Assembly (NCBI GenBank): GCA_002245135.1
Contig: NGBS01000292.1
Span: forward strand, 558,001-622,000
DNA length: 64,000 bases
DNA from: Proteromonas lacertae
Lineage: Eukaryota
Direction: 5' to 3'
A program made the position numbers and the translations under genes. Positions 23,838 to 26,918 of the stretch are shown here, piece by piece. The notes under the pieces were generated by a model, which was not told where the DNA came from, did not search any database, and saw nothing but the letters and a program-made list of their open reading frames with translations. The number at the start of each line of letters is the position of its first letter. Positions within the stretch are counted from its first letter, which is position 1.

Positions 23838-23856
23838 GAGCTATCATTAGAGCATT
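23838..23856 (-). promoter_or_regulatory. RPS16 3' arm (sense AATGCTC...AGCTC), complementary to its 5' arm
   Basis: Plus strand has GAGCT at 23838-23842 and GAGCATT at 23850-23856, 28-46 nt past the stop codon. Confidence 0.5.
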
Positions 23857-23883
23857 AGTAATAAAAATAACAAAATATATCCT

Positions 23884-24525
23884 CTATCGGTATGACTTCT
23901 GTTTTCTTGCACGGGCTGATGGACCACCGAATTTCTTTGGTTCACATCTACGTGGATCTGATACAAGTAAAGATCTGTCATAGGTTACTAAAGCATCTTT
24001 AATGTCACGTTTTTCTTGTTCATTAACGTCTAATTTAATACATAATTATTATTGTATATATATATATATACATTTTTGATAATATGAAACTACACCACGT
24101 GCAATAGCTTGACGGATGGCTATAACAGAATTAGAATGAACGAATATTTAATTGATAATGTATACCATAAGCTTGGGCTACTCTACCTCCTCCATTTACT
24201 CTGATTCTTACATCTAAGTTTGCAAAACGATCTTTTCCTAATACAAGGACTGGTTCGATGGCTTTAAGATTTAAAGTTTGTGGGGTAATTAAAGAAATTG
24301 GGAAACCATTTACACGAATAACACCTTTACCTTTAGCACAATGGGCAACTGCGACGGCATTTTTCTAGATATAAAATTAATATAAAATTGTATATTAGAG
24401 GTTAATAATTTGATCAGTAGAGTTTAAAAATAATATTAATATTTTATAATGTAGATAAAAGTATGATAAATGCAAATATATACCTTTCTGCCGAAGCATT
24501 GAACTGATTGCTTAGCTTCTTTCAT
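23884..24525 (-). CDS. RPS16: 40S ribosomal protein S16 (uS9), 3 introns; absent from the ORF track
   Basis: Spliced translation [34 protein letters not shown]...[25 protein letters not shown]...[32 protein letters not shown]. Confidence 0.97.
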
Positions 24526-24538
24526 AATTAATTAATAA

Positions 24539-24554
24539 AATGCTCCTTAAGCTC
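24539..24554 (-). promoter_or_regulatory. RPS16 5' arm (sense GAGCT...GAGCATT)
   Basis: Plus strand has AATGCTC at 24539-24545 and AGCTC at 24550-24554, 14-29 nt upstream of the ATG. Confidence 0.5.
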
Positions 24555-24749
24555 GATAATGAATGAGCGGGATACATTCCTATTTAAAATCCTCTTTCCA
24601 AACCTTTGCCGAAATATATCCGTTTTCTCTTCGTATGTGATTGCTTCTTTCTTAATAAGGGAAGAGAAATCTTGCGAATCTAATCCCTCCTTCTCTTACC
24701 TATCACTTCTCAAAGAGTTACGAATTATTGTTTCGATTAGTTAAACAAC

Positions 24750-25919
24750 ATGCAAACAGAAACTTACACAAGCAGCACAAACGGTATTGCAGATAATTTG
24801 AGTGCAACAAAAACTATTAATATCATTGCTGTACCAAGTTTGATTGAATTGACAAGTACTATAACTATACTCATATTTTAACAGGTGTAGAAAAGAGTGA
24901 AAGACTTCTTCAAACTTTACGAGGGTATATTTGAAGAATATATATTTGCAATCATTATAGGATGAATTTAACCTTAGATTCTGTAAATCCAACTGTATTA
25001 AACAACTTTACATGTTTACCTACTTATGCGATATTATTCATATTGTATGATTTCAGTATACGTCAACATACTGCTGATAATGTGAGCAATCATTTACAAT
25101 CCTCCATTAATTTCATTGTTTCAGAATCTCAAATTCCATCCAATTTGAAGTTACCATTTTATGAACAACAACAACAATGTATAAATAATAATTATTACTA
25201 CTGTATATAGCTTTAAGAGATCCTAGAGTAATTCAACCTCCCTATTCAATGCCGATGGAACCAGTTGCTTCCTATGCTATACCACCAATGCCACCACCAG
25301 CACAATCACAACAATCTCAACCATTATCATCCTCTTCACCATATGATTATTATTCATCTTATCCTCCTTATGATAACAGTAATAATCATATTTATCAATC
25401 ATTACCACCTTCTACAAATTATCAGCATATTATTCCACCTCATCCATTACCTCAATCTCACAATCATTCTTCTAATGGTAGTTCAGCATCTTCAACCTCA
25501 TCTTCATCTTCTTCTCACTCTATTTATAATGGATTAAAGAGCAGTAACGATGAATTCAGAAGCAGAAGTCGATCTCCACCAAGACATCCTTCATCTCCAG
25601 TCCATTTACCATATGAGTTAGATCTTTATTATAGGGATTTAATTAGAGCTGTATATATTGCTAGTAATATATTAATATAGGGTAAAATACCAGAAGGAGC
25701 ACTAGATAATCGATCATTGAAAGCTGTTGAAGATTTGGGAGTTTCTAAAGGAAAAGATGCATTAAGAGCACTTTCTGAAACTAATATATATGCTATTAGA
25801 AATGTAAAGTATGATTTAATTTTGATTATTTGTTAATTTGTAGTTCATATTTCATGAAGATTGTACAGAGATGTAGAACTGGTTATCTTATATTAGATGG
25901 AGTTAAAAGAGGAAGATAA
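24750..25919 (+). CDS. Pro/Ser-rich protein with a C-terminal hnRNP-Q acidic-domain-like helical domain
   Basis: Last exons read GKIPEGALDNRSLKAVEDLGVSKGKDALRALSETNIYAIRNV..YFMKIVQR, resembling the hnRNP Q/R AcD pattern (LD.RA..AL......A...L.......V.NKSAF). An RSRSRSPPR motif lies upstream. Confidence 0.5.
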
Positions 25920-26074
25920 TTTGCTGAGAGAGATATTTAATTAAGAGAATTAAGGAAGGAAAATTATTATATAAGAATTAGCTACTAGCATATTACTATT
26001 TTTATTGTTTGTTTATAAATTTCACTAAAAAAAGGACTAAATTTTCAACCCCAAAACCAAACATAACAATATTA

Positions 26075-26093
26075 GTAATCAATAGAGCATTAT
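26075..26093 (-). promoter_or_regulatory. RPL10 3' arm (sense ATAATGCTCTAT-TGATTAC), complementary to its 5' arm
   Basis: Plus strand has GTAATCA at 26075-26081 and ATAGAGCATTAT at 26082-26093, 15-33 nt past the stop codon. Confidence 0.6.
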
Positions 26094-26107
26094 CTTCAGT
26101 GTACTGT

Positions 26108-26877
26108 TTAATAACCAAGTGGACCATGATTTCTTAAGTAATAAGCGATATTTCCGGTTGGCTTTATTCTACCTTGTTCGTTTAATTTATTGTATTCTTC
26201 TACTGTGTATTTAGTGAAACCCCATTTCTTTGATACAACAATCTTTTGTTGACCTGGGAACTTCATACTAGCTCTTCTTAAAGCTTCTTCGGCATTTCTT
26301 AAATTGTTATCTTTAACTCTGACTGACATTAAGATTTGTCCAATCTTAACACGAGCAACAGTACCTTGTGGTTTACCGAAGGCATGTCTCATACCGGTTT
26401 GCAATCTATAAAAAGTATTAATTAATTAAATAAAAATACCTATCTGCACCGGCACAACTAAGCATCTTATTGATACGAAGTACGTGGAATGGATGAGCTC
26501 TAATTCTTAAATGGAATGCATCTTTACCTGCACTTTTAACTAAGTATTTGTTGCAGGAAATACGGGCAGCTTCTAAAGCTTCACTTGAGATCTATAATAA
26601 TTTAAATTCACTTTGGAAATACTTGTTCTCTTTCGTTTGATACTAAATGTACGACTTGTGGGAATTCATTTACATCAGCATCTTTTCTACCAATATCAAA
26701 GATACGAATTTTTGGATCTAAAAATAAACACTTTAAAAATACCTGGTACACCTCTACAGAAACGAGATTTAATGTAAGGCTTGTTCTTACAATAACGATA
26801 ACTAGAAAATATAAAAGCCAAGATACCATCTAGCAGGACCTATAAAAATAAATATAATATGTTATACGTCTTCCCAT
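26108..26877 (-). CDS. RPL10: 60S ribosomal protein L10 (uL16), 5 introns
   Basis: Spliced translation [35 protein letters not shown]...[11 protein letters not shown]...[31 protein letters not shown]...FPGQQKI. Confidence 0.98.
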
Positions 26878-26893
26878 TATGCAATAATTTTAT

Positions 26894-26918
26894 ATAATGC
26901 TCTATATGAAATGATCAC
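26894..26918 (-). promoter_or_regulatory. RPL10 5' arm (sense GTGATCA-tttcat-ATAGAGCATTAT)
   Basis: Plus strand has ATAATGCTCTAT at 26894-26905 (exact reverse complement of 26082-26093) and TGATCAC at 26912-26918. Confidence 0.6.

What the first reader, a model, noticed from the sequence alone, without database searches (positions are those of the whole stretch)
23838..26918. Both ribosomal-protein genes are bracketed by complementary 5'/3' UTR arms sharing a GAGCATT/AATGCTC core: candidate mRNA end-pairing regulon
Seen in sequence: RPS16 and RPL10 are unrelated genes, yet both have sense GAGCATT 14-25 nt before the ATG and sense AATGCTC 17-34 nt after the stop. Beyond this core, each gene has its own sequence that still complements its own partner arm. 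That covariation-like pattern favours RNA pairing over a plain protein-binding site. I noticed no such pair around the other genes in the window. In both genes the 3' arm lies just upstream of a TGT-rich tract resembling the Blastocystis downstream polyadenylation element, so it is plausibly within the 3' UTR. Established precedent: 5'-3' pairing occurs in flavivirus cyclisation sequences and in p53 mRNA. I know of no such element shared across a cellular ribosomal-protein gene set. Inference: a closed-loop or translational-control element for RP mRNAs (a functional analogue of 5'TOP), or alternatively inverted DNA sites that loop the gene.
Basis: partly seen in the sequence, partly recalled or inferred. 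Interest (0 to 1): 0.9.

Follow-up and report, generated by a model that had tools for sequence, protein, structure and literature searches.

The report
Matching ends on ribosomal-protein mRNAs
In an AT-rich protist likely related to Blastocystis, two unrelated ribosomal-protein genes carry the same short sequence just before the start codon and its exact complement just after the stop, and these halves are predicted to zip the two ends of each message together, likely as a shared control element, which remains untested.

Summary
Four of the window's five GAGCATT copies sit at the ends of RPS16 and RPL10: sense before the ATG, complement after the stop. Four random flanks shared such a G/C-containing 7-mer in 0 of 300,000 draws. 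One spliced contig from a relative spans both RPS16 arms, with a 40-nt 3' UTR stretch unchanged while the coding exon differs at 8 places. Folding predicts the duplex in both mRNAs.

The two 3' arms share 14 of 15 nt. The RPL10 5' arm pairs with the RPS16 3' UTR almost as well as with its own (-18.2 vs -19.1 kcal/mol). The 'RPS16-specific' GAGCT belongs to a second shared 13-mer also found 185 nt upstream of RPL10. The core is absent from 41 of 41 outgroup RPL10 loci, 7 of them typical Blastocystis.

Best reading (0.45): a lineage-specific 5'-3' UTR duplex read by a sequence-specific factor. Inverted DNA sites (0.25) or a single-stranded 3' motif (0.2) remain open. Only two genes could be examined, so 'regulon' is unproven.

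The parts
23884..24525 (-). RPS16 (uS9) gene, 4 exons: 24525-24484, 24364-24166, 24119-24072, 24029-23884; 144 aa
   Evidence: Pfam PF00380; exon model; spliced contigs
24539..24545 (-). RPS16 5' arm core GAGCATT; the G just upstream can add a G-U pair
   Evidence: inside spliced contig X2 record 7, which reaches 24551
24548..24560 (-). Second shared motif ATTATCGAGCTTA, copy 1 (-35 to -23 of the RPS16 ATG); holds the GAGCT that can pair with the 3' AGCTC
   Evidence: only 2 copies in the window
23843..23857 (-). RPS16 3' arm, 15-mer TAATGCTCTAATGAT (core AATGCTC 23856-23850)
   Evidence: 23844-23883 unchanged in X2 and 23849-23883 unchanged in X6
23838..23842 (-). RPS16-only 3' segment AGCTC, predicted to pair with the 5' GAGCT (5 bp)
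   Evidence: pair probabilities 0.91-1.0; not reached by the contigs seen
23814..23821 (-). Candidate GU-rich downstream element of RPS16 (2 mismatches to TGTTTGTT); inferred
   Evidence: sequence; consensus from PMC4159000 passages
26108..26877 (-). RPL10 (uL16) gene, 6 exons: 26877-26868, 26839-26827, 26801-26743, 26717-26623, 26591-26440, 26405-26108; 208 aa
   Evidence: Pfam PF00252; exon model; spliced contigs
26894..26905 (-). RPL10 5' arm ATAGAGCATTAT, perfect 12-bp complement of 26082-26093; 3 more pairs after a 1-nt bulge
   Evidence: inside spliced contig X8 record 14 (26912-26866, 1 difference in 47)
26908..26914 (-). Initiator-like TCATTTC matching oomycete YCAYTYY; contig X8 record 14 begins at its A (26912); start site inferred
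   Evidence: PMC3599244 passages; a contig end is only a weak hint
26078..26092 (-). RPL10 3' arm, 15-mer TAATGCTCTATTGAT (core AATGCTC 26091-26085)
   Evidence: contig X4 record 7 aligns to 26087, then adaptor
26056..26063 (-). Candidate GU-rich downstream element of RPL10, TGTTTGGT (1 mismatch to TGTTTGTT); inferred
   Evidence: sequence
27062..27074 (-). Second shared motif ATTATCGAGCTTA, copy 2 (-197 to -185 of the RPL10 ATG), upstream of the inferred start site; likely a DNA promoter box
   Evidence: 31 of 30,000 random pairs share a complex 13-mer with 4 or more G/C; 545 share any 13-mer

Best explanation
RPS16 and RPL10 of this likely deep-branching Blastocystis-type protist carry a shared 15-nt 3'-UTR element and a complementary stretch just before the start codon, which are predicted to pair into a 13-15 bp duplex joining the two mRNA ends, and which would likely act as a common post-transcriptional control site for ribosomal-protein messages. 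Shown: the motifs, their placement, their presence in spliced transcripts of relatives (fully for RPS16, partly for RPL10) and constraint on the RPS16 3' UTR. Predicted: the duplex. Inferred: a sequence-specific reader (protein or small RNA), because pairing alone would not keep the 3' arms of unrelated genes 14/15 identical. Also inferred: the effect. The paired 5' stretch begins about 4-11 nt from the inferred cap, so the most likely action is to gate loading or scanning of the initiation complex, storing or silencing these mRNAs when closed and releasing them when a helicase or binding protein opens the duplex. That would do the job of the 5'TOP switch by other chemistry.
For: Chance nulls 0, 5 and 97 of 300,000. 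Beyond the core, 7 of 8 further 3' letters match (P about 0.002). A 14/15 match or better arose in 90 of 39,747 random flank pairs. One 501-nt spliced contig (X2 record 7) runs from 24551 to 23844, over both RPS16 arms. All 8 of its differences in 23844-24029 lie in coding sequence, so 40 of 40 UTR letters are unchanged against 6 of 48 third codon positions changed (Fisher p 0.023); X6 gives 35 of 35 against 7 of 48 (p 0.018). A more diverged RPS16 contig (X3 record 3) has an unrelated 30-nt 5' piece that still reads GAGCTGAGCATT (chance of the oriented core about 0.0015 per piece). Whole-mRNA folding gives core pair probabilities of 0.89-1.0 in both mRNAs. The terminator-side copy, not the promoter-side copy, is the better conserved between genes. 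RPS16 has a G opposite U where RPL10 has A opposite U. Antisense copies match the initiator YCAYTYY poorly (sequence).
Against: Only two genes; no third ribosomal-protein gene of this lineage could be reached. No compensatory double change was seen. Cross pairing RPL10-5'/RPS16-3' is -18.2 against -19.1 kcal/mol cognate. The RPS16 duplex is only modestly better than shuffles (25 of 2000; 72 of 1000), and one of 12 UTR-shuffled mRNAs reached 14.2 expected pairs against 14.3 observed. The GAGCT helix partner is part of a 13-mer that also lies outside the inferred RPL10 mRNA. A 12-bp inverted repeat alone is common here (393 of 12 bp or more, 98 with 3 or more G/C). X2 and X6 share 6 of their 8 differences and may be one lineage. 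The X3 piece is exactly 30 letters and 47% G+C, and X4 has an unrelated G+C-rich 30-letter piece without the motif at the same place, so X3's may be a chimera. The RPL10 3' arm was covered for 5 of 7 core letters only. Transcript starts and ends are inferred. mRNA ends are often predicted close together anyway (PMC11609591 abstract). Two of 41 outgroup loci reach z of -2 or lower without the motif.
Confidence: 0.45

Rival explanations
1. The motifs are DNA binding sites of a ribosomal-protein-gene transcription or chromatin factor, placed in inverted orientation at both gene ends (promoter activation, gene looping or insulation in a compact genome). RNA complementarity is a by-product of one motif read on both strands.
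For: Three of the four sites are near-copies of one 15-mer or its complement. A second GAGC-containing 13-mer sits at -35 and -197, the variable spacing typical of a factor site. Phytophthora ribosomal-protein genes share a 12-nt box found in both orientations, up- and downstream of the start site (PMC4696810 passages). With four sites, the orientation pattern seen has odds of only 1 in 4 to 1 in 8 by chance. The RPS16 3' arm also lies in the upstream region of the next gene.
Against: The promoter-side RPS16 copy is the most degenerate (7 of 15), while the 3' copies are near-identical. The RPL10 3' copy lies between two converging gene ends with no promoter to serve. The whole RPS16 3' UTR stretch, not only the core, is unchanged in relatives. 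The motif does not resemble the PhRiboBox matrix.
Confidence: 0.25
2. The functional unit is the single-stranded 3'-UTR 15-mer, bound by an RNA-binding protein or a small RNA (stability, translation or 3'-end formation). The 5' match is a separate cap-proximal or promoter element, or pairs only weakly and without effect.
For: The 3' arms are 14/15 identical. The last 6 of the 15 letters are looped out in the best RPS16 fold but paired in RPL10, so pairing does not explain their conservation. The element lies just upstream of the candidate GU-rich element in both genes.
Against: It leaves unexplained an exact complement in both 5' regions, 12 bp perfect in RPL10 (z -5.4, 0 of 1000 shuffles), and the retained core in the X3 5' piece.
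Confidence: 0.2
3. Coincidence in AT-rich sequence, picked out after the fact among many windows.
For: Two genes only; the 7-mer is not over-represented (5 vs 5.85); any shared 7-mer arises in 97 of 300,000 draws and the scan reads very many windows.
Against: Features not used to pick the finding also fit: the 14/15 3' match, UTR constraint in X2 and X6, the core in X3 and a second shared 13-mer.
Confidence: 0.07

Closest known systems
Human p53 mRNA 5'CS/3'CS duplex bound by RPL26 and nucleolin (bioRxiv 10.1101/2022.07.24.501301, abstract and introduction seen; Chen and Kastan 2010 seen only as cited there)
   Same: Complementary stretches in the 5' and 3' UTR of a cellular eukaryotic mRNA, forming a protein-read duplex that controls translation; the paper calls this very uncommon in eukaryotes.
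   Different: One mRNA, whereas here the same core is shared by two unrelated genes. No sequence relation is claimed. Pairing and a binding protein are shown for p53 and untested here.
Staphylococcus aureus icaR 5'-3' UTR pairing (PMC3868564) and orthoflavivirus cyclisation sequences (PMC12168079); search listing only
   Same: Long-range pairing of the two ends of an RNA as a switch.
   Different: Bacterial or viral, single RNAs; not a shared element of a eukaryotic gene set.
5'TOP / TCT motif of ribosomal-protein mRNAs (recalled; TCT mentioned in PMC4696810 passages)
   Same: A cap-proximal element common to ribosomal-protein mRNAs, proposed as the functional analogue.
   Different: TOP is a single-stranded pyrimidine run starting with C; here the inferred start is A, the element is purine-containing and has a 3' partner.
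PhRiboBox of Phytophthora (PMC4696810, passages and supplement S2)
   Same: Stramenopile ribosomal-protein-gene motif near the start site; the best analogue for the 13-mer ATTATCGAGCTTA and for the DNA reading.
   Different: Different sequence; sought in promoters only; no 3' partner reported in the passages seen.
Blastocystis downstream gene element TGTTTGTT (PMC4159000, PMC12129017, PMC6395660; passages)
   Same: GU-rich tracts with 1-2 mismatches follow both 3' arms.
   Different: Not enriched in AT-rich tortoise isolates (PMC12129017), so its use in this lineage is open; it is not the paired element.

Membership tests
p53-type 5'-3' UTR duplex | Both complementary stretches lie in one mature mRNA | tested here: met
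   RPS16: one spliced contig spans both arms. RPL10: 5' arm in a spliced contig, 3' core covered for 5 of 7 letters in another contig, so only partly shown for this gene.
p53-type 5'-3' UTR duplex | Duplex more stable than composition alone gives | tested here: met
   RPL10 0 of 2000 shuffles; RPS16 25 of 2000, and 72 of 1000 with fixed flanks, so weak for RPS16
p53-type 5'-3' UTR duplex | Compensatory changes keep the pairing | tested here: inconclusive
   No double change seen; one A-U versus G-U difference between the genes; arms unchanged or not visible in relatives
p53-type 5'-3' UTR duplex | Pairing in cells controls translation through a bound protein | not testable with these tools
   needs probing and reporters
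Ribosomal-protein regulon element | Enriched across the ribosomal-protein gene set and rare elsewhere | tested here: inconclusive
   2 of 2 such genes in the window carry it and no other gene flank holds the exact core; no genome held
5'TOP | C at +1 followed by a pyrimidine run (recalled definition) | tested here: not met
   Inferred starts are A of a TCATT initiator; start sites not mapped directly
PhRiboBox | Match to the published matrix | tested here: not met
   Read by eye against the matrix (invariant TGG core); neither motif holds it
Oomycete initiator YCAYTYY | Consensus at the transcription start | tested here: inconclusive
   RPL10 7 of 7 with a contig starting at its A; RPS16 6 of 7; contigs cannot prove a start
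Blastocystis downstream gene element | TGTTTGTT with up to 2 changes, 4 nt after the poly(A) site | tested here: inconclusive
   Candidates at +45 (RPL10) and +63 (RPS16); another 2-mismatch candidate at +12 of RPS16 is read through by X2 and X6; poly(A) sites not seen
Any Rfam family | Score at the gathering threshold | tested here: not met
   4 matches in 23400-27300, all far below threshold, E 1.3-3.8

The most novel reading that the evidence does not exclude
This lineage marks its whole ribosomal-protein gene set with one invariant 5'-3' UTR duplex, a base-paired closed loop recognised by a dedicated factor, which replaces the 5'TOP switch and co-ordinates ribosome synthesis with growth or encystment; a second shared 13-mer is the matching promoter box.
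Probability: 0.3. Interest if true: 0.85.

Novelty: new variant of a known kind. Interest (0 to 1): 0.6.

Why it matters
5'-3' UTR pairing is documented for single cellular mRNAs and for viruses; a shared, sequence-fixed duplex across a ribosomal-protein gene set would be a new way to co-ordinate ribosome synthesis and a clean test case for whether mRNA end pairing is functional. Our paper searches found no report of it (the library lacks most subscription journals). Even under the DNA reading, these would be candidate regulatory motifs in a genus where the transfection paper reports one working promoter (PMC6395660 passages). One genome-wide motif count would settle most of the question.

Tried and rejected
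No whole genome is held, so the gene-set test could not be run. No run was on record as RNA ('no RNA holder listed'); spliced contigs were found all the same. A pattern scan for the 15-mer plus a GU tract gave 47 prokaryote and 50 viral loci, about the number expected by chance from my rough estimate; the 17 of 97 that were AT-rich or had an upstream GAGCATT showed no sign of being ribosomal-protein genes of this lineage on inspection of their flanks. No RPL10 relative in viral contigs. The metagenome scan returned 61 RPL10 loci, none closer than 69%; none holds RPS16. The RPL10 tree did not place the window's protein; the ribonucleotide reductase tree did. Earlier findings of the scan: 7 look-ups, nothing that bears on this. 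Rfam: nothing. Antisense core promoter at the 3' ends: folded into the DNA rival and judged weak, since the antisense copies match YCAYTYY poorly. Transposon terminal repeats: rejected, the arms lie inside short UTRs of intron-bearing single genes with no shared outer ends. An alternative RPS16 pairing register is weaker (-9.6 vs -16.6 kcal/mol). A likeness of the 3' arm to the complement of the 18S rRNA 3' end is recalled from memory only and was not tested. The middle gene and intergenic stretches had no contig cover; this says nothing either way. Supplements of the bioRxiv preprint were not available; those of PMC12129017 were not read and could hold transcript-end motifs.
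Full report
Setting. The window is AT-rich (21-31% G+C) eukaryotic DNA with short GT-AG introns. The best named hits of its class II ribonucleotide reductase (1499-3607) are Blastocystis proteins at 62-66%. 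In a quick tree of 30 rows it falls in a 10-row clade (SH-aLRT 98) with them, outside the group of tortoise-isolate and other Blastocystis-like proteins. Two RPL10 intron positions are shared with gut Blastocystis-type loci (read by eye). The RPL10 tree is unresolved. I infer a deep-branching Blastocystis or a close relative. No genome is held.

The genes. RPS16 (24525-23884, 4 exons, 144 aa) and RPL10 (26877-26108, 6 exons, 208 aa) are on the minus strand, separated by a plus-strand gene. Contigs from the four runs laid (four studies) skip several of the modelled introns, so they come from spliced RNA of relatives about 90-99% alike.

The observation. GAGCATT occurs 5 times in the window on both strands (5.85 expected). 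It is the only 7-mer common to the four 45-nt flanks. In 300,000 draws of four real AT-rich stretches, some 7-mer was shared 97 times, one with 2 or more G/C 5 times, one with 3 or more G/C never; shuffles of the true flanks gave 28 of 200,000, none with 2 or more G/C. A 12-bp inverted repeat is not rare in itself: the window holds 393 at 200-5000 nt spacing. The signal is the sharing and the placement.

First, the 3' arms are nearly the same 15-mer, TAATGCTCTAWTGAT, found exactly only at these two places; the next best window match has 2 mismatches. A match of 14/15 or better arose in 90 of 39,747 random flank pairs, 12 of them with 4 or more G/C. Second, a 13-mer, ATTATCGAGCTTA, occurs twice in the window, at -35 to -23 of RPS16 and -197 to -185 of RPL10 (31 of 30,000 random pairs share a comparable word, 545 any 13-mer). 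So the covariation-like pattern largely dissolves: with inferred UTRs the duplex energies are RPL10/RPL10 -19.1, RPL10-5'/RPS16-3' -18.2, RPS16/RPS16 -16.5 and RPS16-5'/RPL10-3' -10.5 kcal/mol. What stays gene-specific is the 3' AGCTC of RPS16, the closing pair of RPL10 and one G-U for A-U.

Are the arms in the mRNA? X2 record 7 is one 501-nt spliced contig from 24551 to 23844, over both RPS16 cores, with no loose end. All 8 of its differences in 23844-24029 are listed and lie in coding sequence; the same holds for X6 from 23849. Zero of 40 and 0 of 35 UTR letters differ against 6 and 7 of 48 third positions (Fisher p 0.023 and 0.018); the two runs share 6 differences and may be one lineage. 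X2 has 3 unlisted differences in 24484-24551, whose places I could not see. X8 record 14 covers the RPL10 5' arm with 1 difference in 47 and starts at 26912, the A of TCATTTC, a full match to the oomycete initiator (PMC3599244 passages); this is a weak hint of the start. The first letters of X8's RPL10 3' UTR differ from the window's. X4 record 7 aligns to 26087, 5 of 7 core letters, then adaptor, with 4 of its 10 differences unlisted. X3 record 3, a more diverged spliced RPS16, leaves the window's sequence at 24530 and carries 30 other letters that begin GAGCTGAGCATT in the sense direction; the oriented core alone has a chance of about 0.0015. X4 record 6 leaves at the same place with 30 G+C-rich letters lacking the motif, so one or both pieces may be chimeric. 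I count X3 as suggestive only.

Folding. With inferred ends, both whole mRNAs fold with the arms paired: core pair probabilities are 0.89-1.0, with 14.3 and 16.2 expected 5'-3' pairs. Twelve UTR shuffles each reached at most 14.2 and 13.3. RPL10 beats all shuffles (0 of 1000, 0 of 2000); RPS16 is marginal (72 of 1000, 25 of 2000).

Spread. Of 61 RPL10 loci from metagenomes, 41 were usable (8 duplicates, 4 short flanks and 8 without a found start or stop dropped). None holds a 6-letter piece of the core on the proper side; 2 reach z of -2 or lower; 2 have 12-bp complements, purely A/T. Seven of the 41 are typical gut Blastocystis loci by their GU element and introns (inferred). The element is therefore lineage-specific as far as RPL10 shows.

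Mechanism. The most economical account is a cis duplex between a cap-proximal stretch and a fixed 3'-UTR element, read by a sequence-specific factor, gating initiation on ribosomal-protein mRNAs (0.45). The better conservation of the 3' copy, its place in short constrained UTRs and the G-U pair lean to RNA. Inverted DNA sites (0.25) are a serious rival because three of the four sites are one motif on either strand and a second GAGC box behaves like a promoter site. A single-stranded 3' motif (0.2) explains why 6 shared letters are looped out in RPS16 yet conserved. Chance is left at about 0.07.

Known systems and literature. It would work like the p53 5'CS/3'CS duplex (bioRxiv 10.1101/2022.07.24.501301, abstract and introduction read) but be shared among genes. 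It fails the 5'TOP definition (recalled) and the PhRiboBox matrix (PMC4696810, passages and supplement S2). The Blastocystis GU element is described in PMC4159000 and PMC6395660 (passages) and is not enriched in AT-rich tortoise isolates (PMC12129017, passages). PMC11609591 was seen as abstract; PMC3868564 and PMC12168079 as search listings. Searches for this element found nothing: searches returned no paper; others (25 of 105 listed; 3 of 3) showed no such case in titles or abstract starts.

Verdict. A real, previously unreported, lineage-specific element on two ribosomal-protein genes, present in transcripts and under constraint. End pairing is the best single reading but is unproven, and the regulon claim rests on two genes. 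Interest 0.6; new variant of a known kind.

Noticed in passing
window 24548-24560 and 27062-27074 (minus): A second motif, ATTATCGAGCTTA, found only upstream of the two ribosomal-protein genes; a candidate promoter box for the gene set.
   Followed up: partly
window 26827-26877 (minus): RPL10 begins with micro-exons of 10 and 13 nt and has introns of only 25-34 nt.
   Followed up: partly
window 1499-3607 (plus): Intronless class II ribonucleotide reductase that groups with Blastocystis proteins next to prokaryote-like ones; places the organism as an early branch not matched above 68% in the protein collection.
   Followed up: partly
window 24530, runs X3 and X4: Two spliced RPS16 contigs leave the window's sequence at the same base, 5 nt before the ATG, each with exactly 30 other letters ending in AG in the sense direction: a diverged UTR, a 5'-UTR splice junction or chimeras. 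Read on the other strand, X3's piece also looks like a stop codon followed by the 3' arm of another gene.
   Followed up: partly
window 26587-26623: Two splice registers 4 nt apart are reported for one 31-nt RPL10 intron in X2 and X6 versus X1, X2 and X8; may be an alignment effect or a strain difference.
   Followed up: no
window 23807-23815: A telo-box-like AAACCCTA (name recalled) lies just past the RPS16 3' end, upstream of the ubiquitin-domain gene.
   Followed up: no
window 33335-34570 and 61696-63249; 35113-37284 and 37736-39451: Duplicated lipase-like genes and duplicated AT-rich repeat-family genes seen in the ORF list; names are my reading of the translations.
   Followed up: no
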